Shown: one piece after another, positions 1,831 to 37,751 of the stretch
How the letters are laid out: the number at the start of each line of letters is the position of its first letter
Position numbering within the stretch: position 1 is the stretch's first letter
Virus record (IMG/VR): IMGVR_UViG_3300030035_000024
Strand: one strand, 5' to 3'
DNA: 64,000 bases
DNA from: a virus
Lineage: Duplodnaviria > Heunggongvirae > Uroviricota > Caudoviricetes
Notes under the pieces: model-generated
Seen by the model: only the letters and a program-made list of their open reading frames with translations
The model's database searches: none
What the model was told of the DNA's origin: nothing
Program-made: the position numbers and the translations under genes

Positions 1831-2196
1831 TTACCTCTCAATAAAATCAAAACTAATTCCTTCCATGCGCTCATTGCCTATCCACCAACACTTAAAAGGG
1901 GAATCCCTGTCACTAACATAAAATGTTCTGGTTTCGTGCTTATTTGCAGATAGCAAGTCTGGATATGTGACCTGTATGTACTCTGGATTTACTGCCTGTA
2001 TAATTTTGCAAGCAGTGTCCCAATCTGGGCCATTCCAACCTACAGACAGCTTTCGTTTCTGTCCAACTCTGTTTTTATGCATGGTCGTATCGTCTGTTCT
2101 GCCGGATTCTGATGCCGATATATCCTGTAATCCCCATGTAAAAGAAGAAGGACAGGGCATTGCTACCCCATCCACTTTTAAAAATGCTTCTGCCAT
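1831..2196 (-). CDS. Phage tail component, possible Dit-like distal tail protein (121 aa)
   Basis: ORF-track 121 aa immediately upstream of the Tal-like gene on the same strand. Has conserved-looking W/G/Y beta motifs. Assignment rests on position. Confidence 0.3.
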   Translation of the reverse strand: MAEAFLKVDGVAMPCPSSFTWGLQDISASESGRTDDTTMHKNRVGQKRKLSVGWNGPDWDTACKIIQAVNPEYIQVTYPDLLSANKHETRTFYVSDRDSPFKCWWIGNERMEGISFDFIER

Positions 2197-2296
2197 ATGC
2201 TAACCCTCATGTATTTTTACACACGAAAAAAGCGCCTACCCCGAAAGGTAAACGCTTTAAAAATTGCTTATTATGATTTTATATCATAGCATAGGT

Positions 2297-2328
2297 GGTT
2301 GGTATCATTCAGTATACTTCGGTATCAT
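2297..2328 (-). promoter_or_regulatory. Copy 1 of a 30-bp conserved motif GGTATCATTCAGTATACTTCGGTATCAT (minus strand: ATGATACCGAAGTATACTGAATGATACC); candidate late promoter or activator site
   Basis: A near-identical element recurs at 17410-17440 and 29301-29332, always intergenic and about 40-100 nt upstream of a minus-strand gene block. Contains TATACT flanked by a direct repeat TGATACC. Confidence 0.45.
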
Positions 2329-2423
2329 TTCAATAATCTTTTCACATATGCATAAACAACTTTCAGCCAGTGGCTATTATTGCAGTTCTGTACAAGATTA
2401 ATAATCTCAGTTTTATAATTCAT
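2325..2423 (-). CDS. Small ORF, 32 aa (MNYKTEIINLVQNCNNSHWLKVVYAYVKRLLK)
   Basis: ATG at 2423 preceded by GGTGGAG; TGA at 2325-2327. Paralogous N-terminus (MNYK...) to the adjacent small ORF. Not in the ORF track because it is under 60 aa. Confidence 0.25.
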   Translation of the reverse strand: MNYKTEIINLVQNCNNSHWLKVVYAYVKRLLK

Positions 2424-2427
2424 AGTG

Positions 2428-2535
2428 TTAGCTCCACCTTTCTAAAAACAGCTGAATAAAAGTATATAAGTATTCCAGGGTTCCTGGCTTCTCAATGCTC
2501 TCAATCATTGAAATAATTCCCTTTTTGTAATTCAT
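2428..2535 (-). CDS. Small ORF, 35 aa (MNYKKGIISMIESIEKPGTLEYLYTFIQLFLERWS)
   Basis: Its ATG overlaps the TGA of the upstream HNH gene (ATGA). RBS GGAGGAATTGTGG. Ends TAA 2428-2430. Tandem paralog of the 2325-2423 ORF. Confidence 0.25.
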   Translation of the reverse strand: MNYKKGIISMIESIEKPGTLEYLYTFIQLFLERWS

Positions 2536-2891
2536 TCCACAATTCCTCCTAACATTCTAATCAATTTCTGTTTTCGGTTATACTTCAAAATCTCGGAAAT
2601 CTGCCCCATCATATCATCCATTGTCATGTTGCTCTTCATGCTGTTGCAACGCTTACACGCCAGTTGCAGATTCTTAATATCATTGGTGCCGCCACGAGAC
2701 AACGGCATAATGTGGTCGATTGTCATTTTCTTGAATTTGACAGGCTTACCACATATCGCACATTTTCCGTTGCACTTGGCGTACACGCTCTTTTTCTGAA
2801 AGTCATTGAACTGGATTCTATTTGCCATACGATCACGCTTTCTGCTCCATAGATTCAAGAGCCTTAAATTTCTGTCTTGCTTTATTGGCAT
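2532..2891 (-). CDS. HNH homing endonuclease (119 aa)
   Basis: Translation contains CAICGKPVKFKKMTIDHIMPLSRGGTNDIKNLQLACKRCNSMK, the HNH motif with Zn-binding Cys pairs. Confidence 0.8.
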   Translation of the reverse strand: MPIKQDRNLRLLNLWSRKRDRMANRIQFNDFQKKSVYAKCNGKCAICGKPVKFKKMTIDHIMPLSRGGTNDIKNLQLACKRCNSMKSNMTMDDMMGQISEILKYNRKQKLIRMLGGIVE

Positions 2892-3084
2892 AATCGCTCA
2901 AAATCAACAGTTTCATTGTCATAAATTGCTTGTTATATGCAAAGAAAAGGCTTTTCTCTTTGTCCATCTCTTCTGTGCTGTTAAATCCATACTGTTCTAT
3001 GAAATCATCCACAAGAAACTTGATTTTATCAATAGTGTCCTCTACTTCGAACATTGTGTCTTCTCTATCCATATTTTCTGTCAT
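2833..3084 (-). CDS. Hypothetical acidic protein (83 aa)
   Basis: ORF-track ORF MTENMDREDTMFEVEDTIDKIK...; overlaps the extended HNH start, which probably initiates at an internal Met near 2828. Confidence 0.35.
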   Translation of the reverse strand: MTENMDREDTMFEVEDTIDKIKFLVDDFIEQYGFNSTEEMDKEKSLFFAYNKQFMTMKLLILSDYANKARQKFKALESMEQKA

Positions 3085-3120
3085 TTTATTTTCCTCCTGT
3101 GTATCCCTGTAAAAATCTAA

Positions 3121-3936
3121 TTATGCGATTTCTACTCTGTATGCAATCATCATTTCTTTAATCACGCTAACGTAAATATCTTTCAGCCGCTTATTCTGCA
3201 TAATCACGGACAGTTTGTTAATCTGGTTGGTCTGTGCCTTGGTGCAGCCTCTTTCTTCGGCTCTGGAAATCGCATTTCTAAGTTGCTGATCTAATCGGCA
3301 ACCAGCCCTGTCTGATAATCTGCGGTAGCTTTCGTTTCTGGCGGCGGCATATTTATTCCCGAATGAGTAAGAGAAATCATCGCTCTCGGCAATCTTTGAA
3401 ATACATCTGTTTACCCACTTCTCTGTGCCAACATCGGAATCCGTCCCCTTGAAAGTATCAATGATGGTTTTCATGTTCTTCTCTTGTTGGTCGGCACGTT
3501 CCGCAAGTTTCTTCTGTTCCAGTTCAGTCTTGGCTACTTGTTGAAAAATTTGATTGAACATTTGCAGTTCGGGTGACAGCTGATTAATGTTGATTGCTGT
3601 CTGCTTGTATTTCTCTTCCACTTGGATAAAATACTTGCGAACCTGTTTTCCTTTGTCGTTGCGTTCAAGCATTGCCATTTCTTTGGCAGTGTCGAGTTTG
3701 ATGAGGTATTCAATCGTGTGTTTACTGCCTGTTACCTGCTCCTCAATTTTGGGGAGCAGATCAAAATCTTCTTTTTCCTCAGCATCACACTCTGATAATC
3801 TCCTCTTTACCCATGTGGAAAAATCTGTTTTTACTGCTAAGCTTTTATGCAAGTCTTTTCCATATACAACTTTAATTCCTTTTTCGGTTTCGTACACAGG
3901 AACTAATTCATTTTCAATAACCTTTAAATTTGCCAT
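3121..3936 (-). CDS. Phage regulatory protein Rha / antirepressor-like (271 aa)
   Basis: N-terminus ELVPVYETEKGIKVVYGKDLHKSLAVKTDFSTWVKRRL matches the Rha-family pattern. C-terminal part is helical and charged, like ORF6C/KilAC antirepressor tails. Confidence 0.55.
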   Translation of the reverse strand: MANLKVIENELVPVYETEKGIKVVYGKDLHKSLAVKTDFSTWVKRRLSECDAEEKEDFDLLPKIEEQVTGSKHTIEYLIKLDTAKEMAMLERNDKGKQVRKYFIQVEEKYKQTAININQLSPELQMFNQIFQQVAKTELEQKKLAERADQQEKNMKTIIDTFKGTDSDVGTEKWVNRCISKIAESDDFSYSFGNKYAAARNESYRRLSDRAGCRLDQQLRNAISRAEERGCTKAQTNQINKLSVIMQNKRLKDIYVSVIKEMMIAYRVEIA

Positions 3937-4030
3937 AAAAAATCTCCTTTCGGTGTTTACAATTACACCGAAGGGAGATATAATGACAATATCAACCGCT
4001 TCGGTGTGTTGAGGGTTTTAAGAGTAACCG

Positions 4031-4276
4031 CTACTTGTCGAGGGTTTCGGTTGCTCTTATTTCGTTATAGACCTTTTCAATCCCAATTCTAATAATTTCT
4101 GCTTTTGATTTTCCCGTTTTGTCTGAACAATATTCTAATCTCTGGATATCATCGTCAGAAAGCCTTACTGGCATCGAAATCTTTTTAGGATTATCAGTAG
4201 GTCTACCAGTTCTAGGTGACACCTTATCATCTCCTTTCTTTTTTGTATATACATATATTAATATACCGATATACAA
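4031..4276 (-). CDS. Small ribbon-helix-helix-like DNA-binding protein
   Basis: C-terminal KISMPVRLSDDDIQRLEYCSDKTGKSKAEIIRIGIEKVY shows a beta-strand then two helices, typical of CopG/Arc RHH. The true start is likely internal. Confidence 0.35.
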   Translation of the reverse strand: MYIGILIYVYTKKKGDDKVSPRTGRPTDNPKKISMPVRLSDDDIQRLEYCSDKTGKSKAEIIRIGIEKVYNEIRATETLDK

Positions 4277-4377
4277 AAGTCAACCATTATTTTAACTTTT
4301 TTCAAATTTCCTATTCCACTATTCATTTTGGAGTGGTAAAATATGTATATCATACTGATTTAGGGAGGAAAACGCAT

Positions 4378-5535
4378 ATGAAAAAATCCAAAAAGTTACT
4401 GGCAGTTTTGACCATAATGTTACTGATTGTCTGTATGGCAGTTCCAGTATCGGCGGCTTGGAAAATTAGTAAGAGTAAGGCAACACTGTTTACTGGACAA
4501 ACTTTACAGTTGAAATTGTCTGGGACAAAGGGAAAGGCAAAATGGGCTTCCAGTAAAAAGGCTGTTGCAACTGTTAGCAGTACCGGAAAGGTAAAATCGA
4601 AGAAAGCTGGTTCAGCTACAATCACTGCAAAGGTCGGTAAAAAGAAGTACAGCTGTAAATTAACGGTTGAGTCTCCAAAGCTGAATAAAAAGTCATTATC
4701 CTTAACAGTCGGAGGAACAAGCACTTTAAAAGTGACAGGAACCAAACAGGTTGTAAAATGGAAGTCCTCAAAGAAAAGTGTTGTGGTTGTAAACAGCAAA
4801 GGTAAAATTACAGCCAAAAAGGCAGGGACTGCAAATATTACGGCTACAGTCCTGGGAAAGAAATTCACCTGCAAAGTTACTGTGAAAGCTGTTGATGATG
4901 GATTTAACAGCAATCCAGGGGACGATTTCAATGGCAATAACCGAAACAATGACAATAACAATAATCATGGAAATCAAAACACAACTCTCCCATCATACGG
5001 TGTAACTTATCATGCAGAGTCTACACCATATGGGGCTGTGGCGATTCTGGAAAACCATTATGATTACACCATAGAACTTAGAGTTGATTTTGTATATTTT
5101 CTGAATGGTTCTATGATTGGAAAGGAATCTGCTTATAATTATGCTTTTGCTCCACACTCAAAATGTGCGCTTCAGGGTTGGAACTATGACAAAACATGGG
5201 ATTCTTTTAAGATTAATTTAAGTATTGAAAAAGCTTCTTCCAGTATAATAGTTAATAATTCTGGAATACACTATTCAGCCAATTTTGGAGCTGGAAATGT
5301 CATGGTAAAAATAAATAATAGAGGAAGAAAAACCACTTCCACCACTATTGCGGTTGTATTTTATCAGAATGGTAAAATAATTGGATATGATTATCAGTAT
5401 GCTCATGTAGAAAATCCTGGTTCGACTGCTTATCTTGAATTTAGCTTTCCTTATGACAGAAATTATGATACAATAACGCCTGATAAATTTGAAGTATATG
5501 TAAACAACTCTTACACATATGACTGGATGAACTAA
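4378..5535 (+). CDS. Secreted surface protein with three Big_2-like Ig repeats and a C-terminal beta domain
   Basis: ATG 4378 with RBS AGGGAGG. Signal peptide MKKSKKLLAVLTIMLLIVCMAVPVSAAW. Three repeats of about 60 aa (KATLFTGQTLQLKL...ATITAKVGKKKYSCKLTV). One of the few plus-strand genes, so likely moron/lysogeny-expressed. Confidence 0.6.
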   Translation: MKKSKKLLAVLTIMLLIVCMAVPVSAAWKISKSKATLFTGQTLQLKLSGTKGKAKWASSKKAVATVSSTGKVKSKKAGSATITAKVGKKKYSCKLTVESPKLNKKSLSLTVGGTSTLKVTGTKQVVKWKSSKKSVVVVNSKGKITAKKAGTANITATVLGKKFTCKVTVKAVDDGFNSNPGDDFNGNNRNNDNNNNHGNQNTTLPSYGVTYHAESTPYGAVAILENHYDYTIELRVDFVYFLNGSMIGKESAYNYAFAPHSKCALQGWNYDKTWDSFKINLSIEKASSSIIVNNSGIHYSANFGAGNVMVKINNRGRKTTSTTIAVVFYQNGKIIGYDYQYAHVENPGSTAYLEFSFPYDRNYDTITPDKFEVYVNNSYTYDWMN

Positions 5536-5569
5536 GATAAAGGCTAGGGAGAAATCCCTAGCCAATTTT

Positions 5570-6295
5570 TTAATATAAACTTCTAATGTAAGTATTTGTA
5601 AATTCGTTATACTCTCCAACCATATCAATATTATTTACGGAAACGTATCTAGTTTCATATGTTCCTGTATATTCGTCTGTATTTGAGTAAGTAAATTGAG
5701 TAATAAAACTGTAGTCTTTTCCATCATAAGAAAAATCTCCACGTACTTCCGCTAATCCATCACATTCTTTAATTTCGAGTGAATTTTCTCCCCCTGTCCC
5801 GATTCCAAGATTAACCATAGGATTTATATTATACTGCATGAGTTCTTCTGCGGTTCTGCCAATAAATTTCTTAGTATCAGAATCTAAATCGTCTCCGTTT
5901 TTTATCAACCACGGAAACAGATTAGTCCCCATATTTGAAGTTTCTGTCCCATTGTCTACATCATATGTTACATCCAGTAACAATCGTCCAGAATCCGATG
6001 CAAAAACAAGTGAATAAATATCATTATAGTCAAACCAATCTTGATAAGCCATATTTCTAAGCATTTCATGTGATTGTTTAACATAATCCAGAGATTCTTC
6101 CCGTGGAAGAGATACCCTTACGAAAAGGCAAGAAACATTTTCTCCACAATATTCTTCCGCATAAAATGATATCGTGTCAGAACTATAATCAGCCAAATAC
6201 TCATTAACTTGGTCTATGGAAGCCATGACAGGTGTCGCAGTCACCAAACTCGCCATCACGGTTGCAGCAGCAATAACTCTTTTTACTTTCTTCAT
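5570..6295 (-). CDS. Secreted protein of unknown function (241 aa)
   Basis: Signal peptide MKKVKRVIAAATVMASLVTATPVMAS. Convergent with the Big_2 gene. Confidence 0.5.
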   Translation of the reverse strand: MKKVKRVIAAATVMASLVTATPVMASIDQVNEYLADYSSDTISFYAEEYCGENVSCLFVRVSLPREESLDYVKQSHEMLRNMAYQDWFDYNDIYSLVFASDSGRLLLDVTYDVDNGTETSNMGTNLFPWLIKNGDDLDSDTKKFIGRTAEELMQYNINPMVNLGIGTGGENSLEIKECDGLAEVRGDFSYDGKDYSFITQFTYSNTDEYTGTYETRYVSVNNIDMVGEYNEFTNTYIRSLY

Positions 6296-6358
6296 ACTTA
6301 CGTACCTCCCAATACTTGATACCCATATTGTACCACCTCGGGACGCATTCCGAAAGAA

Positions 6359-6583
6359 CTATTTCGCTTTTCTATCAATTTCCGCAGTTACGGCAAACAA
6401 AAGAGCTTCGGCAAATTTCGAACCGACCGAATCAGAGTATTTATCGTGAATCCGGTTTGCTTCCACGGTGAGATTTTCCCACTGCGGAATATCGTCCTTT
6501 GAGATAAAGGCGTACTTCTTGTGGAGGTTCCATATTTCTTGCCAGATGGAGAAATAAGTTTGCTTGAAATTCATCAATACCAC
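6359..6583 (-). CDS. Hypothetical protein (74 aa)
   Basis: ORF-track ORF; overlaps the upstream gene by 10 nt, suggesting translational coupling. Confidence 0.3.
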   Translation of the reverse strand: MVLMNFKQTYFSIWQEIWNLHKKYAFISKDDIPQWENLTVEANRIHDKYSDSVGSKFAEALLFAVTAEIDRKAK

Positions 6584-6906
6584 TTCTCCGTCAGTTGATT
6601 AATCGGTGTTCCGGCAACTCCGGCACTTTCTCCGCTGTCTGTTGCCTTAAAGTATGCACCTATAATCTGAGGGTACATAAATTCAAACATTAAATAATTA
6701 GCTGCATCGCAAAGATATTCTGTATTTCCTGTCTCACGATACTTTTTGATGCACATATCGTGGGATTCCAAGGCGTTTACCAACTTCTCCCCGAAGTTAT
6801 CCTTTGCCGTACCATACTTGTAAAAGCTTACCTCAACCCTATTCTGTCGTAATTTATCGAAACGGTCTGAATATTCTGTTGGAAGTTCTGTTCCTAGTTT
6901 GCTCAT
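6574..6906 (-). CDS. Hypothetical protein (110 aa)
   Basis: ORF-track ORF MSKLGTELPTEYSDRFDKLRQNRVEV...; no recognisable motif. Confidence 0.35.
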   Translation of the reverse strand: MSKLGTELPTEYSDRFDKLRQNRVEVSFYKYGTAKDNFGEKLVNALESHDMCIKKYRETGNTEYLCDAANYLMFEFMYPQIIGAYFKATDSGESAGVAGTPINQLTEKWY

Positions 6907-7025
6907 ATGCTTTAATTCTCCACAATTAATTAATTTCTTGACTCAAAAATCAGTTTTCTTGGCTTGTGCCTATATTTTATCTGGCAAGAGGTTTTGAAAC
7001 GTATTTGGTTATTTTATCATGTCAA

Positions 7026-7469
7026 TTAATTACCCTCATATGTCTCATAATCAATCGTTCCAAGATTACCGTACACATTTGGATAATAAATTCCAACCCA
7101 GAAGTTATCCTCCATTGCTTTGTAGTAAGTTACTTTTACATTCCATCTCTGTACCTCGTCAATAATTTCTTTGTTTAGAAGTCCGAATTGATCTCGGCAA
7201 GCTTCACTTTCCAGTTTGTAAGTCAATGCTTTGTATTTCTCGGCATTTGCCTGTCTGGTGGCGGTAACATTGGTTTTGGTGAGTAGTAAAATCAATCCAG
7301 CTACCAGGAACCATACTACACTGATGAAAGAAATTACCACGCCAAAAGACAATATAAATCCACTCACACTTGAACGCTCATATTCGCAGCTTAAAGATTC
7401 GCCTATTCTATTTGTAATCAGAATAACAACGCCGACCGCAAAAATGATTACTGATAGCCAAAATATCAT
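7026..7469 (-). CDS. Membrane protein, 2 TM helices plus cytoplasmic domain (147 aa)
   Basis: Hydrophobic stretches MIFWLSVIIFAVGVVILI and FGVVISFISVVWFLVAGLILLL. Confidence 0.45.
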   Translation of the reverse strand: MIFWLSVIIFAVGVVILITNRIGESLSCEYERSSVSGFILSFGVVISFISVVWFLVAGLILLLTKTNVTATRQANAEKYKALTYKLESEACRDQFGLLNKEIIDEVQRWNVKVTYYKAMEDNFWVGIYYPNVYGNLGTIDYETYEGN

Positions 7470-8530
7470 AGCATGTCCTCCCTGTCCTCAACTTTCATTA
7501 ACAAATTTTTCCGTATGTAGCCAGACATGAAATGCGAATAATGATGATCCGTGTACTCACTAAATGAAGTGCCAAAGTATTCATCAATCACTTTCATGTA
7601 TGTTTCAATTTCAACATTCTGGAAGTAATCTGGATTTGGCCCGAATCCAAACTTGTCCAGGATATTATCCAAAGCGTCTTGATTGATTTTTATGTGCGGT
7701 TTTCTGGTTCGTTCTTCATACCTCTTGAAGAAATACTTCGATACTACCAGGAAGCGGTTAGTTGTATATGGGCTTGTCGTATATCCCAATTCTTCAAGAC
7801 GCACTGAAACCTGGTTCTTGAATGCAGACCAGTTAAAAGATTTACGGTCTATTGGAGTATACTGGATGTTCTCCTCGGTCAACATATTTTTGATATGTTG
7901 AGAATTGAACCACTCGTTAGAGTGGTATGCATTTTTCTCTTCTTCTTTTAACTCCGTAGGAGATGTAGTATCTGGTTTATCATTAATGTCTGAAATATAA
8001 TCTCTGTTTGTAGTTTTTGGTATTGTTTGACGGTTTGAATCGTATTGATCGTTCATTGGTACTTCATTCATTGCGCACTCATGCGCATTGGAAAAATCAT
8101 CTGGCAAATTAATTTTGTAATCGCTTAAAGGATAACCTTTTTCTTTAAGTGCTTTTGCTATATTTACAAGGCTAACACGATATTGTAAAGTTCTGTCCCA
8201 TTTGTATTTTGGGTTATTTCTTTTTGAAATAAAGCCCATATTAACCAGTTCATTGATATACCGTCTTACTTGGCTTACAGACAAGCCAAGCATGATTTCA
8301 TTGGATAGTTCTTCTGCTGTTTTGTATATCCAGCCATAGAATAATTCCTTTTCTTCTTCACCATTTTTTCGTGCGATTTCATTTTCTTTTTCAATGAATT
8401 TATCTGCATCGGAAACTCTTTCAGACCAATAAATAAATTGTTTTAATATGATTGCTTTACGAAAATCTCCTGTAATAGCAAGCAAATCTTCACGCAAAAC
8501 TACTTTTTTAATTTTCTCCATCTTATTCAC
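7466..8530 (-). CDS. RepA_N-like winged-helix DNA-binding protein (putative replication initiator or regulator), 354 aa
   Basis: N-terminus ...ELFYGWIYKTAEELSNEIMLGLSVSQVRRYINELVNMGFISKRNN resembles the Firmicutes RepA_N winged-helix pattern. Family call is from memory of the motif, not a search. Confidence 0.45.
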   Translation of the reverse strand: MNKMEKIKKVVLREDLLAITGDFRKAIILKQFIYWSERVSDADKFIEKENEIARKNGEEEKELFYGWIYKTAEELSNEIMLGLSVSQVRRYINELVNMGFISKRNNPKYKWDRTLQYRVSLVNIAKALKEKGYPLSDYKINLPDDFSNAHECAMNEVPMNDQYDSNRQTIPKTTNRDYISDINDKPDTTSPTELKEEEKNAYHSNEWFNSQHIKNMLTEENIQYTPIDRKSFNWSAFKNQVSVRLEELGYTTSPYTTNRFLVVSKYFFKRYEERTRKPHIKINQDALDNILDKFGFGPNPDYFQNVEIETYMKVIDEYFGTSFSEYTDHHYSHFMSGYIRKNLLMKVEDREDML

Positions 8531-9341
8531 CTGCCGCTCTGTCTAATTTATCGTGAAATTTGCTATGGCAATTTTCGCATAACACTATGAGATCGTTATC
8601 TGCAACTGATCTCATATGTTCTCGTCCGTGATTTTCATATGTTTTATGGTGGACATTAAGTTTTCCGCTTTTTCCGCATAACTGGCAACGGTAATTTGCA
8701 CTTTTTAACTTATAATTTCTAACTCCATCCCAATACGGTGTATGTAAAAAATCGTTATAATCCATATTGTTAATCTCTTTGCATATTTCGTCTTGATCTG
8801 GGTTAGTTCCATATTTTTGATACATGATATAGTTAATTTTGTCTTTTGCAGATACTCCATCAGTAAAGCAAGCGTTAGGATTTAAATATTCCTTGTATCT
8901 GAGAGTGAGGTTTGCAAGTTCCTCTTTTCTTTCTTTTTCCCATTTTTCACGAGATATAGATTGTTCGATTTTTATCTGCTTCTGATATTCTGTCTCACAT
9001 TCTTCGCATCTGAAATACTCGTTATTAGTGTCTTTATTATTGATACATTTAATCATATTTAAAATTCTAGTTTTAGAAATCATCCGAGTATATATTTTCC
9101 CACAAATAGGGCATTTTATTTGATACTCATATAAAATTTTATCCGTAGGATCTAAATTATCATATCTATAAAATGCATTAGTGATTTCTGTTGTTTTTAC
9201 ATTCATTAGAATTTTCGTAAGTTCAAAGTCGATAAGATCTCCACGTTTTATTAAATTGTCATTTTTTCTGATGTCTGAAAAGACCACATTTTTAATAAAT
9301 TCTTTATTCATATAGATAACCTCCTTGTTGGTCGTAGACAC
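8523..9341 (-). CDS. HNH endonuclease with N-terminal zinc finger (272 aa)
   Basis: CPICGK...CEEC zinc finger. C-terminus CQLCGKSGKLNVHHKTYENHG...DLIVLCENCHSKFH is an HNH motif. Confidence 0.65.
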   Translation of the reverse strand: MSTTNKEVIYMNKEFIKNVVFSDIRKNDNLIKRGDLIDFELTKILMNVKTTEITNAFYRYDNLDPTDKILYEYQIKCPICGKIYTRMISKTRILNMIKCINNKDTNNEYFRCEECETEYQKQIKIEQSISREKWEKERKEELANLTLRYKEYLNPNACFTDGVSAKDKINYIMYQKYGTNPDQDEICKEINNMDYNDFLHTPYWDGVRNYKLKSANYRCQLCGKSGKLNVHHKTYENHGREHMRSVADNDLIVLCENCHSKFHDKLDRAAGE

Positions 9342-9442
9342 TCTCCGTATTGTGCCAGAATCCTTGATTTATAAAAACAGTGGACAGGCGCATCAAGGTT
9401 TACGCTTTTCGGCGGCCAACCTAGCCCACTGAATTTACCATA

Positions 9443-9913
9443 TTAAGCTAAAATCAATCTATTTCCATCATAATGACTCTTTACGTAATCAATTATTTTC
9501 TCGGAATCGTCGGATGTTATATAAAAAGCGTCTTTAATCGGAATATTGTTTATTTTCATAATTTTTACTATTTTCTTTATGTGAAAAACTGTACAACATT
9601 TAAATTCCGTTTGCTCTCTTATAATTTTTCTCACTTTTCCAAAAGAAAACTCATGTTTATCATCAACAATTTTTTGGTTGTATTTTGGCATATATTTTCT
9701 AATATAAAAAATTTCCAATGAATCCAAGTCTTCAAGTTTGCATTTAATAACGGAAACCGAAGTAAAGTGTTTATTTGAATGACTATATGGGCGGAAAAGC
9801 CCTAGCTTAGACTGTCCAATATAAACTACTTCATTACCATCTAAAAGGAAATAAATAATTGGTTCTCTTGCAATCGGAATACGAATGCAATTTGAATTTT
9901 CCTTAAATTCCAT
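9443..9913 (-). CDS. GIY-YIG-superfamily nuclease-like protein (T5orf172-like), about 157 aa
   Basis: PIIYFLLDGNEVVYIGQSKLGLFRPYSHS matches the GIY...YIG spacing followed by R/H. Start taken at an internal Met (MEFKENS...). Confidence 0.4.
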   Translation of the reverse strand: MEFKENSNCIRIPIAREPIIYFLLDGNEVVYIGQSKLGLFRPYSHSNKHFTSVSVIKCKLEDLDSLEIFYIRKYMPKYNQKIVDDKHEFSFGKVRKIIREQTEFKCCTVFHIKKIVKIMKINNIPIKDAFYITSDDSEKIIDYVKSHYDGNRLILA

Positions 9914-10176
9914 AGATTGATACCTGCCTTTCGTATAAAAGAGTGCCTTGAACTGTATGTAAATCAACAGGCAGGCGGCAAGGCATTTCCGCTTTTCGAT
10001 GATCGGTCTAGCCTGTTGGTTTTACCGAAATTTATCGACTTAATAAAAAAAGAGCCGCCAAGTAAGACAAAAAATTCCTCAAAATCGAGAAATATTAATT
10101 TCTTCTTAGCGGCTCAAAAATCAAGACCGTGTGTACTTCTTCATTAAAGAAATCATACCACACAATCAGTCAAAAA

Positions 10177-13100
10177 TCAATATGCCGGGGACGGATTGAA
10201 ACGGCTATTCGTTTCATTCTGGGCTTTTGTTACAGCTTTCGCAATCTCGCTTCCGTCTAAAATAATGCTGTTCATGATGTACTGCGGATTCTTGTTTCCG
10301 CTGTTCATACTCATTGCCATTGCAACTCCCTGGGCTACTGCTTTTGCCATTTCTTCTTTTGTAAGTCCCATGCTTCCGTCCGAACTGGAAACAATGCTGT
10401 CTGCAATCTTCTTCATGGTTCGTGGATTTTCCAGAGGAAGGACAGCTTCGGAACCGGCTTCACCGATACCAATTACCTGTGCGCCATTGAAAAGACCACC
10501 TTTGGCATACCAATTAGGCTTGTAAACTGGTGTAGAACTGGTTCTTCCACCGCCAAGATCATGTTTTCTCCACTCTGAAATATAATAAGTCAGAGTTGGT
10601 AAATGTACTTGTTTCATGCCATCAGCGAATGATTGAGCAGTTTCCCGACCAATTGATGTAAGATTAACATTAAATAGCCTTTTAATTTTATCCGAAATCC
10701 CAGACAAATTGGTTTCTGTATAAGATTTCATTTTCCCAGTTTCCGTGTCAACTTTACCAGAAGCCTTTTCCCAAATCTGGTTTGTATTGATTAGAACAGA
10801 AGACCAATAACTTTGAATGGTTGTCATAACCTTACCCATTACATCTTTTGTATCGGTGTCCATGGTTCCGAGAGCTGTCGATACAGCACTTGCGGAATTT
10901 CCCCAGTTTGTTTTGGAGTTTGTTTCAACATCATCATTCGTGTTCTTTATCTTTGACCAAATGGAAGGCATTGTGCTTTCTGTGCTTTTTTTCATCCCAG
11001 CCATTGCCGTGCTTACAGCTGCACTGGCTATTCCAAAACCAGTCTTAGAGTTTGAAGAAATGGATTTCGTAGCTGTTTCCACTGATTTGCTCATTGTTGA
11101 TGAAGATTTTGGAACATCTTCTGAAAAAGCTTTAATAACTTTTCCTGTGTCAATTCCCATCTCTGCCATTTTATCCATCAAGGCTTGGAATGCGGCTCTG
11201 GCTGTTGCACCAGATGATTCTTGTTGCTGAAGGACAGCACTTAATTCATCAAACTGCGTTGGAGTGATTACTGCTTGATTTGAAAGTCTTTCTAATGCAG
11301 ATTTCGCATTATCAAATTCTGTCCCCATCGTACCGATATATTCATTAATATTACTTACATGAGAATTTGTAGAAGTATCGGATTCTTCCATTGCCTGTTT
11401 TAATGCTTGCTTAAATGTATCGGAAGAAATTCCAAGATTTTCAAGTGATGTTTCTACGGTTTGGAGCTGTCCATCAAAATCAAATGCATTGTCTTTCACA
11501 TTTTTTAAATCACCGCCGAGTCCGATAAGTTTATCGCCAGAGATTCCAGTTTGTTCTTCGATGATTTTCAATGCTTTTCTAACAACTTCAAAATCGTTGA
11601 ATGCGTCAGCTGTGGAATCTTTAAAGTCCATAGCTTTTTTTACCTGTCCAAGACCTTCCACGACAAATGCAGTCGCGCCTAAATTAGTTGCGTATCCCCA
11701 AAATCCTTGGAATTGTCCACCAGCTGTTTGTGCGACATCACCGAGATTTTTTATCTTTTCTGCAAGTGTAGTAAACCCGCCATTTCCAGCCGTTTCCGCT
11801 GCTCCACCAATATCACCGATGATAGTGGGAAGAGAAGATGCGGTATCAAGTGGGAAATTTAAAAGTTTTGAAGCTAATGAACCGATTCCGCTAGCAAAGG
11901 AAAAGATTTTGGTGGCAATATCTTTGGCTATTTTGATTGCAAACAATGTTCCAAATGCAGCACCAACTTGTTTTATAAATTCTGGATCAATTCCACTTAA
12001 TTTTTCAGCCAACCAATTAATTGCATTTGCAATACCGTTAATTAAATCCGCTCCGATATTAATTATTCCTTCAAGCCCGGTAATCAACGCATCTGCAAAT
12101 CCCTCTGCAAATGGTTGGAATGCAGACCATAAATTTCCAAGAGCAGTTCCAACAGCATTCCAATCAACCTTATCAATAAAATTCTGTATTGAGGTTTTTA
12201 CACGGTCAATACTGCTCCAAATCCACTCCCAGTCAACATCAATAACTCCGAAATTATCAAGTGCAAGTACGATTCCACCGATGCCAAGTGCCATTGACGC
12301 ATAAGGATGTTTTGCCAGTAAAGAAAGTCCTTTTCCTAATGGGCTGTCTTTTCCAATGATTCCACCAATAAAGGTTAATCCTTTGAATCCTAGAATCGCC
12401 AAAGAAATTTGGCCGAGACTCTTTCCTATAGCTTGTGCTGTTTCGGGACTTATATTTTTTATTGCTTCTGCGATAGAATTTAGACCTCCAGGAACAGTTG
12501 AATTGATGAAATTCTCTCCGACATTAAGTAAATCTTTATAAAAATCCACAATGCCTTGTCCTACATTCTTTGCAAATGGAGCCAATGCATCCCAGAAATT
12601 TTTCAGTGATTTATTAAGTTCTTCCCAATGAATGTTGTTTCCGAAACTGGTCAACGCATCAACTAATTGTGGAATTGCGCCGTTCATCGTCCAAGTTCCG
12701 ACTGGAACGAGAAAATGCTCGTAAAAATCCATAAGTCCCGTCCAAACAAATTGTGTTGGCTTTTGGAGCATAGTAAACAATCCTTCTAAAGAAGTTTGGA
12801 GCTTTAACCAGTTGATTTTTGTCAGCAAATCATTTGTAATGTTAAAGAATCTTGGAAGTCCTGAGTTGTTTGATAATGACCATTTACCGATTGGCTGTAG
12901 GTAATTCTTCCACAAATTTTTCAAAGCATTAATCGAAAAATTTCCTAGTCTGCTTAGACCTTCATTATAAAGCTTCTTTATTGCGGCAGTGGTTGGCTTT
13001 GCATTCTTTCTGATTTGTTTAAATGCCTTGATAATCTTATCAGATACAGTTTGCGCTTTATTCTCAACATTTGCAAATGCTTGATCCCATGCTTTTTGAT

Positions 13101-15117: not shown

Positions 15118-15165
15118 TTTATTTGTCCCTCCTTTTTTACAAAAAAAATAAAGGGCAGACAAGAC

Positions 15166-16915: not shown

Positions 16916-17317
16916 TCAAAGTAATTTTCCTGTATATATCCGGCTGTATCGGCTTACAAGCTTTTTGATTCCACTGTCACCAAAAAACATAGGTTCCGGG
17001 CCATATGTACGACGGAATCCCATGTTCACCATAGCTTTGTGACTTATCTTGTCCAATTCATACACTCTGGTTAATGCTTTGCTACCAGATGTGAAGCAAT
17101 TTACTTGAAATGATGGCATTGTTGCGCATTCATCTCCTTCAAGGTCACCTCTCGTAATTGGATTTCCAAGCATATAAAGCTGTGCGTATGCTTTTTTGCC
17201 AGAAGCATTTGTCTCGCTCCCATCCATGGAATAATTGTCTGCGCCAGTAACCTTAGAAACAGCCGCTCCCCATTTTGAAAAAACTTCCAGTACAGGGGAT
17301 TCTATTGTGTCCGGCAT
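16916..17317 (-). CDS. Hypothetical tail-module protein (about 133 aa)
   Basis: Start moved to MPDTIESP, ATG 17317 with RBS GAGGTGA. Confidence 0.35.
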   Translation of the reverse strand: MPDTIESPVLEVFSKWGAAVSKVTGADNYSMDGSETNASGKKAYAQLYMLGNPITRGDLEGDECATMPSFQVNCFTSGSKALTRVYELDKISHKAMVNMGFRRTYGPEPMFFGDSGIKKLVSRYSRIYTGKLL

Positions 17318-17409
17318 ATCTGTCACCTCACAATAAAAAATGCGCCCACCTTCATAGTGAACGCATTGCATTTTATGCTACAATTTAACACTGTAATGAT
17401 AACATAATT

Positions 17410-17440
17410 AGTTGGTATCATTCAGTATATTATGGTATCT
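17410..17440 (-). promoter_or_regulatory. Copy 2 of the 30-bp conserved motif (AGTTGGTATCATTCAGTATATTATGGTATCT)
   Basis: Intergenic between 17444 and 17371, upstream of the 16916-17317 gene, holin-like gene and major tail protein block. Confidence 0.45.
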
Positions 17441-29300: not shown

Positions 29301-29332
29301 AAAAGTATCTTTCAGTATACTTCGGTATCATC
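29301..29332 (-). promoter_or_regulatory. Copy 3 of the 30-bp conserved motif (AAAAGTATCTTTCAGTATACTTCGGTATCATC)
   Basis: Lies about 80 nt upstream of the portal start and overlaps the stop codon of the ArpU-like gene. Confidence 0.45.
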
Positions 29333-35757: not shown

Positions 35758-35829
35758 TAGAAACAACAGGAATCGAACCTGTGTCACATGATATTCAATA
35801 TCATTGCTCTACCACTGAGCTATGTTTCA
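35758..35829 (-). tRNA. tRNA-like gene (72 nt): canonical D and T arms, anticodon loop AUUGAAU (anticodon UGA, Ser-type without a long arm), 1:72 U-U mismatch
   Basis: Minus-strand TGAAACATAGCTCAGTGGTAGAGCAATGATATTGAATATCATGTGACACAGGTTCGATTCCTGTTGTTTCTA. Followed by a structured region (TCTGGCAA/TTGCCAGA hairpin). Confidence 0.45.
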
Positions 35830-35882
35830 TATCACCGCCTGTCACGGTCAGTTTAGAAACTGAGTTGATTTTCACCCTTTAT

Positions 35883-37334: not shown

Positions 37335-37487
37335 GTTTCTTCTCCTTTCAGGACACGAAAAATATAAAATATACGAATTAGATTTTATTTAAGTGAGTTG
37401 CTGCAAGCGTCCCATAAATTTCATGATGCTTTTTGGTTTCATAATTAACAGTTATGTCCAAAATGATTGCTGTAAGCATCACATAAT

Positions 37488-37577
37488 TGCCCCGACAGGA
37501 TTTGAACCTATAAAATTATTTGCAGTGAAGAACACAAACATGTTCTAATCGGTTTTCCGTAACCGATAACCGGGGCA
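37488..37577 (-). ncRNA. Aberrant tRNA-like RNA A (90 nt): acceptor, D and T arms retained, anticodon arm replaced by a 6-bp stem with a UGUUUG hexaloop
   Basis: Minus-strand TGCCCCGGTTATCGG...CCGATTAGAACATGTTTGTGTTCT...ATAGGTTCAAATCCTGTCGGGGCA. 7-8-bp acceptor pairing, T-loop TTCAAAT, and no 7-nt anticodon loop. Confidence 0.5.
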
Positions 37578-37578
37578 G

Positions 37579-37692
37579 TGACGAGGGATGGATTCGAACC
37601 ACCAACCTATGCCTTGTAATGGAGTAAATTGCTGTTATAGTCACAAACATGACTAATATTCTCATTGCTCTGTCCAATTGAGCTACCTCGTC
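37579..37692 (-). ncRNA. Aberrant tRNA-like RNA B (114 nt), 1 nt upstream of A; same CAUGUUUGUG hairpin plus a 27-nt insertion
   Basis: GACGAGGTAGCTCAATTGGACAGAGCA...AGTCATGTTTGTGACT...GGTGGTTCGAATCCATCCCTCGTCA. Perfect acceptor, D and T arms; AAUGAG/CUCCAUU long-range pairing encloses the insertion. Confidence 0.5.
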
Positions 37693-37751
37693 TAAAAACC
37701 AACAATAGATATGCTAAAGTAAGATATCCTATCTACACCTGGTAGATGGAA

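What the first reader, a model, noticed from the sequence alone, without database searches (positions are those of the whole stretch)
2200..10176. 8-kb accessory island inserted between the tape measure gene and the Dit/Tal distal-tail genes
Siphovirus-type tail modules normally run tape measure then Dit then Tal without interruption. Here about 8 kb of non-structural genes intervene.

The island holds two HNH endonucleases (2532-2891, 8523-9341), a GIY-YIG-like nuclease (9443-9913), a RepA_N-like winged-helix protein (7466-8530), a Rha antirepressor (3121-3936), an RHH protein, a 2-TM membrane protein, three small unknowns and two tandem paralogous MNYK peptides. It also holds a convergent pair of secreted proteins (4378-5535 on the plus strand with Big_2 Ig repeats; 5570-6295 on the minus strand).

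This looks like a homing-endonuclease-seeded moron or defence/anti-defence hotspot. Membrane proteins and secreted Ig-like proteins in such positions are candidates for superinfection exclusion or host-surface modification.
Basis: partly seen in the sequence, partly recalled or inferred. Interest (0 to 1): 0.6.

Follow-up and report, generated by a model that had tools for sequence, protein, structure and literature searches.

The report
Shuffled accessory-gene island inside phage tail operon
A temperate gut phage carries about 8 kb of non-structural genes wedged between two tail genes that are normally adjacent; nearly every related phage has a different mix of genes there, and the mix looks suited to competing with other phages rather than to building the virus particle.

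Summary
The tape measure gene (10177-15162, minus strand) and a minimal distal-tail gene (1831-2196) are separated by 7.97 kb of non-structural genes.

More distant relatives (Blautia phage Montmirail, MT835477, one 88-kb contig) have the two tail genes 10-52 bp apart. All 63 close relatives with both ends in view have an island of 4.6-9.8 kb. These show 59 different ORF orders, but the order of "slots" is fixed.

The window's island holds:
- two copies of the Rfam int-alpA RNA, each leading a low-GC nuclease gene
- a winged-helix protein, a membrane protein and two small unknown genes, one of which (g74) is nearly universal
- a convergent pair of secreted proteins, each with its own promoter, sharing a bidirectional terminator
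- a ribbon-helix-helix plus antirepressor operon whose promoter overlaps a palindrome
- an HNH gene followed by two translationally coupled peptides

Predicted terminators sit at both ends. In relatives, the slot occupied by the 241-aa secreted protein holds, behind the same signal peptide, a protein with Ltp repeats, a known superinfection-exclusion domain.

No known defence system was found. The region downstream of the distal-tail gene is about as mosaic as the island. All functions are inferred.

Verdict: a large, combinatorial example of a known kind, the moron or accessory island. The closest parallels are the P22 sieA/immI region and the HK97 gp15 moron.

The parts
10177..15162 (-). Tape measure protein gene (left flank, not part of the island)
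   Evidence: phrog_28918 at 1e-161 and phrog_1535 'tail length tape measure protein' at 1e-61.
10042..10167 (-). Conserved structured element right after the TMP stop. It has hairpin 1 (10125-10167), a long hairpin 2 (10052-10115) and a U-run (10042-10051), and is a predicted intrinsic terminator (T1).
   Evidence: RNA fold -49.3 kcal/mol, z = -7.1, with 0 of 200 shuffles as stable. The roughly 135 nt are conserved in all 64 relatives with this end in view and absent from island-less L084.
9946..10018 (-). int-alpA RNA motif, copy 1, leader of the GIY-like nuclease gene
   Evidence: Rfam RF02996, 45.4 bits against a gathering score of 35.8. Covariation supports the structure.
9443..9913 (-). 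GIY-YIG-like nuclease gene (156 aa from the ATG at 9913), GC 0.28
   Evidence: phrog_1111 'endonuclease' at 1e-4 and PADLOC PDC-S14 at 7e-6. It is present in only 8 of 81 relatives. GC. The assignment is weak.
9362..9431 (-). int-alpA RNA motif, copy 2, leader of HNH2
   Evidence: Rfam RF02996, 53.6 bits against a gathering score of 35.8. It is the best window hit of the in-session model R1, at 106 bits.
8523..9311 (-). HNH2: zinc-ribbon plus C-terminal HNH nuclease (262 aa), GC 0.30
   Evidence: phrog_119 HNH at 2.5e-13; Pfam HNH 21.3 bits. The HNH domain is also weakly like that of IscB (1.5e-7, far below cutoff). It is present in 3 of 81 relatives, always together with the 96-97%-identical allele of the next gene.
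7466..8530 (-). Winged-helix protein (354 aa) with a replication-initiator-like N-terminus; its 5' end overlaps the 3' end of HNH2
   Evidence: phrog_22444 at 3e-21, phrog_6493 'DnaD-like' at 2e-13, Pfam HTH_24 and RP-C weak. The phage has its own DnaD-like gene at 52510-53430.
7026..7469 (-). Membrane protein (147 aa) with 2-3 predicted transmembrane segments
   Evidence: Hydrophobic segments at residues 1-26 and 33-70. No family hit. Present in 45 of 81 relatives.
6574..6906 (-). g110, small protein of unknown function
   Evidence: No hit in Pfam, PHROGs, PADLOC or NCBIfam. Present in 48 of 81 relatives.
6359..6574 (-). g74, the near-universal core gene of the island (71 aa, predicted helical); its start overlaps the g110 stop
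   Evidence: Present in 73 of 81 relatives. Only 20 clusters among 5.8 billion proteins, all at least 63% identical. Conserved FKQTYF..IWQ and AEIDRKAK motifs.
6327..6335 (-). Extended -10 box TGGTACAAT upstream of the secreted-protein gene
   Evidence: Read directly from the sequence. It is followed by the RBS GGGAGG and the ATG at 6295. Prediction only.
5570..6295 (-). Secreted 241-aa protein (signal peptide MKKVKRVIAAATVMASLVTATPVMA); candidate superinfection-exclusion or host-surface protein
   Evidence: Hydrophobic N-terminus. Relatives place the same signal peptide in front of alternative mature domains, including an Ltp-repeat protein. It is an orphan, with 3 clusters in the protein collection. 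The AF2 model is unusable.
5542..5563 (.). Bidirectional terminator between the convergent secreted-protein genes
   Evidence: 9-bp stem with 6 GC pairs and T-runs on both strands.
4378..5535 (+). Secreted protein with two Big_2 Ig-like domains, an N-rich linker and an unknown C-terminal domain; it runs opposite to the tail genes
   Evidence: Pfam Big_2 at 6e-15. Signal-peptide-like N-terminus. Extended -10 TGGTAAAAT at 4334-4342. In relatives the family occurs in either orientation or is absent.
4241..4283 (.). Divergent control region: sigma-70-like promoter TTGACT-17-TAATAT (minus strand, 4283-4255) overlapped by a 38-bp inverted repeat (4241-4278)
   Evidence: Promoter scan and inverted repeat I13, with 19-nt arms, 84% complementarity and no gap. 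Sequence. Prediction only.
4031..4219 (-). Ribbon-helix-helix regulator (62 aa from the GTG at 4219)
   Evidence: phrog_876 'transcriptional repressor' at 5e-16; Pfam RHH_1 at 0.009.
3121..3936 (-). Antirepressor (AntA domain), 271 aa
   Evidence: Pfam AntA at 3e-19; phrog_373 at 3e-36 and phrog_5817 at 7e-34, both annotated anti-repressor.
2833..3084 (-). g83, small acidic protein of unknown function
   Evidence: No family hit. Called as an 83-aa gene in relatives L090-L092.
2532..2828 (-). HNH1 endonuclease (98 aa from Met22 of the ORF)
   Evidence: Pfam HNH at 6e-17 and HNH_5 at 4.5e-17. Present in 51 of 81 relatives. The 98-aa gene call in L090 supports this start.
2325..2535 (-). Two tandem paralogous peptides (35 aa at 2428-2535, 32 aa at 2325-2423). 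The first starts in an ATGA overlap with the HNH1 stop.
   Evidence: ORFs, sequence. Related 38-41-aa peptides lie at the same position in relatives. They are gene-called in L090-L092.
2229..2332 (-). Conserved right-end element. It has GATAC repeats and the TATACTGAATGATAC motif (2302-2316), a -10-like box, then a 13-bp hairpin with a T-run (2229-2258; T2).
   Evidence: Terminator scan and RNA fold. The motif recurs at 17415 and 29305 upstream of structural genes. It is conserved in most relatives.
1831..2196 (-). Minimal distal tail protein (right flank), 121 aa
1..1827 (-). N-terminal 609 codons of the large tail-tip (Tal-like) protein (right flank; runs off the window)
   Evidence: phrog_6616 'tail protein' at 9e-159. 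Full length is 1341 aa in L090. The Tal role is inferred from position only.

Best explanation
The 7.97 kb between the TMP stop codon and the Dit ribosome-binding site is a lineage-specific, highly plastic accessory ('moron') island. It sits inside the late tail operon of a temperate siphovirus of about 80 kb from the human gut, probably infecting Blautia or other Lachnospiraceae.

**Shown**
- More distant relatives have TMP and Dit adjacent.
- Every close relative has an island.
- Gene content differs in nearly every genome, but alternative genes fill a fixed order of slots.
- The slots are separated by conserved pieces: the post-TMP element, the int-alpA leader, g74, a shared signal-peptide segment, HNH1 and the pre-Dit element.

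**Inferred**
1. Relatives exchange cassettes by homologous recombination at those conserved pieces. Double-strand breaks made by the sporadic, low-GC free-standing nucleases may stimulate this.
2. The cassettes are expressed on their own. The two convergent secreted-protein genes each have an extended -10 box and share a bidirectional terminator. The RHH-antirepressor-HNH1-peptide operon has a sigma-70-type promoter overlapped by a palindrome, which the RHH protein probably binds to repress its own operon.
3. Terminators at both ends insulate the island. Late transcription must therefore either read through them by antitermination or restart at the promoter-like motif before Dit.
4. The cargo serves competition between phages.
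   - The secreted and membrane proteins would block DNA entry of superinfecting phages. This rests on the Ltp-repeat allele found in the same slot; Ltp's known target is the tape measure protein.
   - The antirepressor module would act as a secondary immunity region, like P22 immI.
For: **Insertion relative to more distant relatives**
- The TMP-to-Dit gap is 10 bp in Blautia phage Montmirail, 18 bp in MT835477, whose Dit is 75% identical, and 52 bp in L097.

**Occupancy and variation**
- 63 of 63 close relatives (Dit 95-98% identical) with both ends in view carry 4,565-9,790 bp at this site.
- These show 59 distinct ORF-family orders, with a conserved slot order.
- Islands with overlapping gene classes also occur in clades whose Dit is 87%, 79%, 77% and 70% identical.

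**Conserved linkers**
- About 135 nt after the TMP stop are conserved in all relatives.
- g74 is present in 73 of 81 relatives.
- The 25-aa signal-peptide segment is 88-100% identical in front of unrelated mature domains.
- The right-end element is conserved in most relatives.

**Predicted expression signals**.

**Cargo**
- An Ltp-repeat protein (PF07553, 2e-28) fills the same slot behind the same signal peptide.
- Published work shows that the Ltp repeat domain confers exclusion and that its target is the tape measure protein (PMC3952083).
- Relatives also carry a DUF5052 lipoprotein, a zinc-ribbon membrane protein, a signal peptidase and Big_2 secreted proteins.
- The RHH plus AntA pair is supported.

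**Nucleases**
- They are sporadic: the GIY-like gene is in 8 of 81 relatives, HNH2 in 3 of 81 and HNH1 in 51 of 81.
- The first two have low GC, 0.28 and 0.30.

**Lifestyle**
- The phage is likely temperate: it encodes a large serine recombinase at 49507-51276.
Against: - No expression or phenotype data exist. Every function is inferred.
- The window's own secreted protein has no Ltp domain, no lipobox and no detectable homologue of known function. Its structure model failed, with pLDDT 37.7.
- PADLOC finds no known defence system in the window island or in ten pan-island representatives.
- The island is not uniquely variable. The 10 kb downstream of Dit is about as mosaic: the mean fraction alignable at 90% identity or more is 0.42 there and 0.32 in the island.
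- The TMP C-terminal allele does not track the allele in the secreted-protein slot (inspection).
- The near-universal g74 could have a conserved role, even a virion or assembly role.
- The ORF families came from a crude ORF caller and include some spurious antisense ORFs. The count of 59 orders therefore measures sequence types rather than curated gene content.
Confidence: 0.7

Rival explanations
1. The intervening genes are conserved parts of tail assembly or the virion, for example Big_2 as a decoration protein and g74 as an assembly factor. On this reading the 'island' is simply this lineage's extended tail module.
For: - Every close relative has something at this site.
- g74 is present in 73 of 81 relatives and g110 in 48 of 81.
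- Big_2 domains occur on phage structural proteins; PHROG hits include 'structural protein with Ig domain' and 'major tail protein'.
- Most island genes share the strand of the tail genes.
Against: - Apart from g74, every gene is dispensable in some relative.
- The Big_2 gene is on the opposite strand in the window, flips orientation between relatives, and has a signal peptide, its own promoter and a terminator.
- The other genes are nucleases, an antirepressor and DNA-binding proteins.
- More distant relatives build tails without any of them.
Confidence: 0.08
2. The island is a novel anti-phage defence or anti-defence locus. Its unknown proteins, together with the nucleases and the winged-helix protein, would form systems not yet in any database.
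For: - It is a variable-content hotspot in a temperate phage.
- It holds nucleases, DNA-binding proteins and small unknown proteins.
- Relatives carry a SocA_Panacea (antitoxin-type) gene and TnpB.
- The RHH regulator next to small genes resembles anti-defence loci with Aca-type regulators. This resemblance comes from background knowledge and was not tested.
Against: - PADLOC gave only generic HNH or GIY domain hits: PDC-S14 at 7e-6, and PtuB and ZorE at weak scores.
- No ATPase, sensor or effector architecture typical of defence systems is present.
- The gene sets do not co-vary as fixed multi-gene systems, except for HNH2 with one winged-helix allele.
Confidence: 0.15
3. The island is mainly an accumulation of selfish elements: free-standing homing endonuclease genes, with Rha-, AntA- and T5orf172-type genes hitch-hiking. 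It would bring no benefit to phage or host, and the site is simply one where insertions are tolerated.
For: - Across relatives, HNH, HNH_3, GIY-like and T5orf172 genes sit at both edges of the island, directly next to the TMP stop or the Dit RBS.
- They have low GC and a sporadic distribution.
- TnpB is present in 3 relatives.
Against: - Most of the island's length encodes secreted, membrane or regulatory proteins with their own expression signals, not nucleases.
- The slot order is conserved and the Ltp-type cargo has a known adaptive function.
- No relative in the close clade has lost the island.
Confidence: 0.12
4. The island is an integrated autonomous mobile element, such as a satellite, transposon or integron-like cassette array, parasitising the phage.
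For: - It carries a replication-initiator-like winged-helix protein, an antirepressor and a repressor-like RHH protein, which are typical contents of satellites or plasmids.
- The repeated int-alpA structured element at cassette starts loosely recalls integron attC sites.
Against: - The window's island has no integrase or transposase.
- There are no flanking direct or inverted repeats beyond chance, and no target-site duplication when compared with the empty site in L084.
- The element never occurs as a unit elsewhere.
- int-alpA occurs only once or twice per island, and only in front of six gene families.
Confidence: 0.04

Closest known systems
Salmonella phage P22 sieA-mnt-arc-ant (immI) region between ejection gene 16 and tailspike gene 9
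   Same: - It is an accessory block embedded among late structural genes.
- It combines a membrane superinfection-exclusion gene with ribbon-helix-helix regulator(s) and an antirepressor.
- The RHH gene lies directly upstream of ant, under a promoter with an operator.
- The sieA, orf59a and mnt cluster and the position of gene 9 downstream of gene 16 are in PMC10883804. The arc-ant details come from background knowledge.
   Different: - The host is Gram-positive and the phage is a siphovirus; the site is TMP-Dit rather than ejection protein-tailspike.
- The island is about three times larger.
- The divergently transcribed partner is a secreted Big_2 protein, not a second RHH (Mnt).
- It additionally carries nucleases, int-alpA RNAs and a winged-helix protein.
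- No sequence homology to the P22 proteins was found or tested beyond family level.
HK97 gp15 moron (the first element to be called a moron)
   Same: - It is extra DNA inside the tail operon next to the tape measure gene.
- It has its own promoter and terminator and is expressed from the prophage.
- It encodes a membrane protein that blocks DNA entry of phages, with specificity determined by the tail tube and tape measure region (PMC3594210; PMC10883804).
   Different: - HK97 has one small gene upstream of the TMP gene. Here there are about 15 genes downstream of it.
- The proteins are unrelated.
- Exclusion is unproven here.
Ltp-type superinfection exclusion lipoproteins (Streptococcus thermophilus phage TP-J34)
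   Same: - Relatives of this phage carry, in the same slot and behind the same signal peptide as the window's 241-aa protein, a protein with two PF07553 Ltp repeats.
- The Ltp repeat domain is the active exclusion unit and targets the tape measure protein (PMC3952083).
   Different: - The window's own protein has no Ltp repeat.
- The Ltp-repeat allele in relatives (seen in representative L058) has a signal-peptidase-I-type signal and no lipobox.
- TP-J34 ltp lies in the lysogeny module, not in the tail operon.
int-alpA RNA motif (Rfam RF02996; candidate structured RNA of unknown function)
   Same: - Both window copies score above the gathering threshold and keep the conserved CUAG, CGAAAAGCG and CCUG nucleotides.
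- The three stems and the loop-to-3'-tail pseudoknot co-vary.
   Different: - The family is named for integrase and alpA neighbours (background knowledge).
- Here it precedes HNH or GIY-like nucleases and winged-helix/HTH_36 genes inside a phage tail operon.
Free-standing homing endonuclease genes and hyperplastic regions of large lytic phages (T4-like, T5-like)
   Same: - Nuclease genes with sporadic distribution and low GC lie between conserved genes.
- Close relatives show mosaic variation.
   Different: - The phage is temperate.
- Most of the cargo is envelope or regulatory proteins.
- Homing activity is untested.

Membership tests
Moron / accessory island (Juhala 2000; Cumby 2012 usage) | Extra DNA absent from the same site in related phages | tested here: met
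   TMP and Dit are 10-52 bp apart in Montmirail, MT835477 and L097, against 7,980 bp in the window.
Moron / accessory island (Juhala 2000; Cumby 2012 usage) | Own promoter and terminator | tested here: inconclusive
   Sequence-level predictions only:
- extended -10 boxes before sec241 and Big_2, with a shared bidirectional terminator
- TTGACT-17-TAATAT before the RHH gene
- terminators at both island ends

The overall count of promoter-like sites in the region does not exceed that in shuffled sequence (30 against 33.3).
Moron / accessory island (Juhala 2000; Cumby 2012 usage) | Base composition differing from neighbours | tested here: met
   Met for part of the island. The GIY-like gene has GC 0.28, HNH2 0.30 and sec241 0.35, against 0.372 for the window and 0.388 for TMP. 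Ant (0.41) and g74-g110 (0.41) do not differ.
Moron / accessory island (Juhala 2000; Cumby 2012 usage) | Expression from the repressed prophage | not testable with these tools
   Needs transcriptomics of a lysogen.
Ltp-type superinfection exclusion protein | Lipoprotein_Ltp repeat domain (PF07553) | tested here: not met
   The window protein 5570-6295 has no Pfam, PHROG or NCBIfam hit. The domain is present only in the alternative allele in relatives.
Ltp-type superinfection exclusion protein | Signal peptide with lipobox cysteine | tested here: not met
   The signal peptide ends ...TPVMA/S and no cysteine follows.
Ltp-type superinfection exclusion protein | Blocks phage DNA injection; escape mutations map to the TMP | not testable with these tools
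   Needs cloning and phage challenge.
P22 immI-like secondary immunity region | RHH regulator immediately upstream of, and co-oriented with, an antirepressor gene | tested here: met
   RHH at 4031-4219 (phrog_876, 5e-16), then a 94-nt gap, then AntA at 3121-3936.
P22 immI-like secondary immunity region | Promoter overlapped by a palindromic operator | tested here: met
   TTGACT-17-TAATAT at 4283-4255 overlaps the inverted repeat 4241-4278. This is sequence-level only.
P22 immI-like secondary immunity region | Second, divergently transcribed RHH maintenance repressor (Mnt) | tested here: not met
   The divergent gene is the secreted Big_2 protein.
P22 immI-like secondary immunity region | The antirepressor inactivates prophage repressors | not testable with these tools
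   Needs genetics or biochemistry.
int-alpA RNA (RF02996) | Covariance-model score at or above the curated gathering score | tested here: met
   53.6 and 45.4 bits against 35.8.
int-alpA RNA (RF02996) | Three-stem junction supported by compensatory changes | tested here: met
   90% of cells are paired, against 30-47% when partners are slid. Nine pairs change on both sides. Zero of 500 shuffles reach the observed value.
int-alpA RNA (RF02996) | Neighbourhood of integrase or alpA genes (the origin of the name; background knowledge) | tested here: not met
   All 71 copies in close relatives lie upstream of winged-helix/HTH_36 or nuclease genes.
Free-standing homing endonuclease gene | HNH or GIY-YIG catalytic domain | tested here: met
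   HNH1 is strong and HNH2 moderate. The GIY-YIG assignment for 9443-9913 is only weak.
Free-standing homing endonuclease gene | Sporadic presence among close relatives at a fixed intergenic site | tested here: met
   The GIY-like gene is in 8 of 81 relatives, HNH2 in 3 of 81 and HNH1 in 51 of 81. Alternative nucleases occupy the same slot.
Free-standing homing endonuclease gene | Cleaves the endonuclease-free allele and spreads by gene conversion | not testable with these tools
   Needs co-infection or in vitro cleavage assays.
Known anti-phage defence system (PADLOC-DB 2.0) | Match to a defence-system protein model with the system's partner genes present | tested here: not met
   Only isolated nuclease-domain hits, with no partner genes.
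Distal tail protein (Dit), minimal lambda gpM-like form | Tail-tube-like beta-sandwich fold | tested here: met
Distal tail protein (Dit), minimal lambda gpM-like form | Gene directly after the TMP gene and before the tail-tip protein gene | tested here: met
   This is the arrangement in island-less relatives.

The most novel reading that the evidence does not exclude
The island would be a dedicated phage-versus-phage competition locus, physically linked to the tape measure gene it is meant to counter in rivals. Two things would follow.

1. The convergent secreted-protein slot is under diversifying selection for exclusion specificities, with Ltp-type and several orphan domains swapped behind one signal peptide.
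2. The int-alpA RNA is the cis-acting leader that controls or mobilises the nuclease and winged-helix cassettes. It could act as a processive antitermination or attenuation element that lets these genes escape the flanking terminators, or as the homology or recognition patch for cassette exchange. Either would give this orphan RNA family its first function.
Probability: 0.2. Interest if true: 0.7.

Novelty: new member of a known kind. Interest (0 to 1): 0.45.

Why it matters
**Temperate phages of gut Firmicutes.** These phages are poorly understood. Here a common lineage, represented by hundreds of contigs from human gut samples, keeps a large, constantly reshuffled set of envelope, regulatory and nuclease genes in the middle of its tail operon.

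**A source of testable exclusion proteins.** If the secreted and membrane proteins exclude competing phages, the island offers a natural library of exclusion specificities. These could be tested against defined tape measure variants.

**A tractable setting for an orphan RNA.** The int-alpA RNA motif has no known function. Here it appears 71 times, always in front of one of six gene families, with natural compensatory variants.

**A practical warning for annotation.** Pipelines that expect a contiguous TMP-Dit-Tal run may break the tail module here or mistake the island for a prophage boundary.

Tried and rejected
- **GenBank phage nucleotide search.** Only two unannotated fecal scaffolds matched. 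One looked like an island-less junction, but BLAST showed it was just the upstream tail region plus a 46-bp repeat.
- **PDB sequence searches.** Dit, Tal, sec241, RHH, the winged-helix protein and Ant gave nothing usable.
- **NCBIfam on ten island proteins.** It returned only sub-threshold hits: Sta1 for the winged-helix protein and the IscB HNH domain for HNH2.
  - I considered and rejected an IscB/omega-RNA-like reading of int-alpA plus HNH2. HNH2 has no RuvC domain. The score is 30.9 bits against a cutoff of 175. The same RNA also precedes winged-helix genes.
- **AlphaFold of the 241-aa secreted protein.** With its only three homologues the model had pLDDT 37.7, so no fold search was run.
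- **Terminal repeats or target-site duplication.** Only chance-level repeats were found.
- **TMP C-terminal allele versus exclusion-slot or left-end nuclease allele.** Inspection showed no association.
- **A sigma-70 promoter inside the post-TMP element.** The TGGTATAAT box lies in the arm of a hairpin, so I do not claim a promoter there.
- **Is the island more variable than its surroundings?** It is not clearly so; the region downstream of Dit is similarly mosaic.
- **Genome-collection scan for hosts.** It found one Blautia MAG, so the host assignment is tentative.

Full report
**Observation**

All genes in the first 30 kb of the window run on the minus strand.
- ORF 10177-15162 is a tape measure protein (phrog_28918 at 1e-161; phrog_1535 at 1e-61).
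- ORF 1831-2196 (121 aa) matches DUF6711 and phrog_1194.
- The open-ended ORF 1-1827 matches phrog_6616 'tail protein' at 9e-159.

- HNH1 (Pfam HNH, 6e-17).
- An antirepressor with an AntA domain (3e-19). This is not the Rha family.
- A ribbon-helix-helix regulator (phrog_876, 5e-16).
- A secreted protein with two Big_2 domains, on the plus strand.
- A second secreted protein on the minus strand.
- A membrane protein with hydrophobic segments at residues 1-26 and 33-70.
- A winged-helix protein with replication-initiator-like hits (phrog_22444 at 3e-21; DnaD-like at 2e-13).
- HNH2 (phrog_119, 2.5e-13).
- A weakly GIY-YIG-like protein (phrog_1111, 1e-4).
- Three small proteins and two short peptides with no family match.

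**Is the 121-aa protein really a Dit?**

The fold alone cannot separate a tube protein from a Dit. However, in relatives without the island this gene follows the TMP gene directly and precedes the large tail-tip protein. It is therefore a minimal Dit of the lambda gpM size class. The Tal role of ORF 1-1827 rests on position and the PHROG label only.

**Is it an insertion?**

In three more distant relatives the TMP and Dit genes are adjacent:
- Blautia phage Montmirail: the TMP gene ends at 33946 and a 124-aa gene starts at 33957.
- MT835477, an 85-kb phage whose Dit is 75% identical: 18 bp lie between TMP stop and Dit start.
- An 88.6-kb contig whose Dit is 65% identical: the gap is 52 bp.

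By contrast, 80 IMG/VR contigs have a Dit 95-98% identical to the window's. All 63 with both ends in view carry 4,565-9,790 bp at this site, and none is empty. Islands with overlapping gene classes also occur in clades whose Dit is 87%, 79%, 77% and 70% identical.

Alignments place the boundaries exactly. The left boundary is right after the TMP stop codon. The right boundary is about 14 nt before the Dit ATG. There are no flanking repeats and no target duplication.

**Architecture across relatives**

I clustered crude ORF calls from 81 islands. This gave more than 40 recurring families and 59 different family orders among the 63 complete islands. Some small antisense 'families' are spurious and act only as markers of sequence type.

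The order of slots is constant:
1. TMP, then an edge slot holding Rha, T5orf172, HNH, HNH_3 or GIY-like genes.
2. A winged-helix or HTH_36 slot.
3. Small membrane, lipoprotein or unknown genes: TM147, a DUF5052 lipoprotein, g110 and DUF1653.
4. The near-universal g74 (73 of 81).
5. A secreted-protein slot.
6. A secreted protein on the opposite strand.
7. An RHH gene plus an antirepressor.
8. HNH1 and short peptides.
9. A conserved non-coding element.
10. An optional Rha or T5orf172 gene, then Dit.

Representative scans add further families: Phage_pRha, AntA+ORF6C, signal peptidase S26, a zinc-ribbon membrane protein, a 631-aa Big_2 protein and TnpB (in 3 loci).

The key case is a 310-aa protein with two Lipoprotein_Ltp repeats (2e-28). 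It carries the same signal peptide as the window's 241-aa secreted protein and sits in the same slot.

**Signals inside the window's island**

- *Post-TMP element.* The roughly 135 nt after the TMP stop are conserved in every relative. The 147-nt stretch that contains them (10030-10176) folds into two hairpins followed by a U-run (-49.3 kcal/mol, z = -7.1).
- *Convergent secreted-protein genes.* Each is preceded by an extended -10 box: TGGTACAAT at 6327-6335 on the minus strand and TGGTAAAAT at 4334-4342 on the plus strand. They share a bidirectional terminator at 5542-5563.
- *RHH-antirepressor operon.* It has a TTGACT-17-TAATAT promoter overlapped by a 38-bp inverted repeat at 4241-4278.
- *Coupled genes.* The HNH1 stop overlaps the start of the first peptide in an ATGA.
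- *Pre-Dit element.* A 13-bp hairpin with a T-run lies at 2229-2258. It is preceded by a motif (TATACTGAATGATAC between GATAC repeats) that recurs upstream of two other structural genes, at 17415 and 29305.

All of these are sequence predictions. The overall count of promoter-like sites in the region does not exceed that in shuffled sequence.

Rfam finds two copies of the int-alpA RNA (RF02996): 9362-9431 at 53.6 bits and 9946-10018 at 45.4 bits, against a gathering score of 35.8. These are the only copies in the 64-kb window.

A model built from 14 variants found 82 copies in the fetched loci. All are on the tail-gene strand. Island-less relatives have none.

In the close clade there are 71 copies. 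Each lies directly upstream of one of six families:

| Gene family downstream | Copies |
|---|---|
| Winged-helix protein (the window's 354-aa family) | 24 |
| HTH_36 protein | 17 |
| HNH | 10 |
| GIY-like | 8 |
| HNH_3 | 7 |
| HNH2 | 3 |

Compensatory changes support the three stems (9 pairs change on both sides; 90% of cells are paired against 30-47% when partners are slid). The loop-to-tail pseudoknot is kept in three different sequence versions: CCUUGAU/AUCAAGG, CCGUAAU/AUUACGG and UGCCUUG/CAAGGCA. The function of this RNA family is unknown. I found nothing on it in the paper library beyond its discovery survey.

**Interpretation**

The best reading is a plastic accessory island of the moron type. 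Cassettes are exchanged between relatives at conserved linkers.

Its cargo suits competition between phages. It has envelope proteins that may exclude superinfecting phages, and a secondary-immunity-like RHH-antirepressor operon. The sporadic low-GC nucleases (GC 0.28 and 0.30) may promote exchange.

The phage is likely temperate, since it encodes a large serine recombinase at 49507-51276. Prophage-expressed functions are therefore plausible.

The closest known cases are:
- the P22 sieA/immI region between gene 16 and gene 9 (PMC10883804, plus background knowledge)
- the HK97 gp15 moron next to the tape measure gene (PMC3594210)
- Ltp, whose repeat domain blocks DNA entry and targets the tape measure protein (PMC3952083)

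**Limits**

- Nothing is known about expression or phenotype.
- The window's own secreted protein has no Ltp domain and is an orphan (3 clusters). Its structure model failed.
- PADLOC finds no known defence system.
- The island is not uniquely variable. The 10 kb downstream of Dit is similarly mosaic, with a mean alignable fraction of 0.42 against 0.32.
- g74 is conserved enough to have some fixed role.
- The host is inferred only from one Blautia MAG and from Blautia phage Montmirail.

**Verdict**

This is a large and unusually combinatorial member of a known kind, and the association with the int-alpA RNA is a new detail worth following up.

Noticed in passing
window 2302-2316, 17415-17429 and 29305-29319 (all minus strand): The 15-mer TATACTGAATGATAC, with at most one mismatch, occurs three times. 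Each copy lies between GATAC direct repeats and is followed by a TATGnT-like box. Each sits in an intergenic gap upstream of a structural gene (Dit, gene 16916-17371, portal). The copies at 2302 and 29305 are followed by a hairpin and a T-run. This looks like a phage-specific late promoter or regulator site, perhaps under antitermination control.
   Followed up: partly
window 35758-38408, especially 35883-37334 (-) and 37579-37692 (-): A 483-aa protein has DUF2828, DUF7788 and VWA_2 domains. PHROGs calls it an 'RNA-binding protein', and the domain layout recalls Ro60. It sits among four tRNA genes and a 114-nt tRNA-like Rfam hit that ARAGORN does not call. The hit may be a tRNA with an insertion or a Y-RNA-like partner.
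   Followed up: partly
L007 1868-3031; also L021 and L073 (islands of relatives): A TnpB gene (OrfB_IS605 plus Cas12f1-like TNB domain) is inserted in the island of three relatives, between the winged-helix gene and the membrane-protein gene.
   Followed up: no
L090 4654-5109: A relative whose Dit is 87% identical carries a SocA_Panacea-domain gene (antitoxin type) in its island. This hints at toxin-antitoxin cargo in the wider pool.
   Followed up: no
L097 4391-9949: In an island-less 88.6-kb relative, the tape measure region is called as two ORFs (820 and 908 aa) separated by about 370 nt. This could be a frameshift, an intron or an assembly error.
   Followed up: no
L003-L082, 10 kb downstream of Dit: The tail-tip and receptor-binding region downstream of Dit is about as mosaic between close relatives as the island. 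The mean fraction alignable at 90% identity or more is 0.42 there against 0.32 in the island. The first 609 Tal residues range from 71% to 97% identity.
   Followed up: partly
window 49507-51276 (-), 52510-53430 (-), 42046-42789 (-): The phage encodes a large serine recombinase (phrog_95 'integrase', 3e-111), its own DnaD-like replication protein, and a second antirepressor outside the island.
   Followed up: no
window 2325-2535 (-) and the same position in relatives: Short helical peptides of 32-41 aa always follow HNH1 and are translationally coupled to it. They begin MNYK or MIDYK and carry a conserved L..(I/V)Y.F motif. Several sequence variants exist. No family matches them and their function is unknown.
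   Followed up: partly
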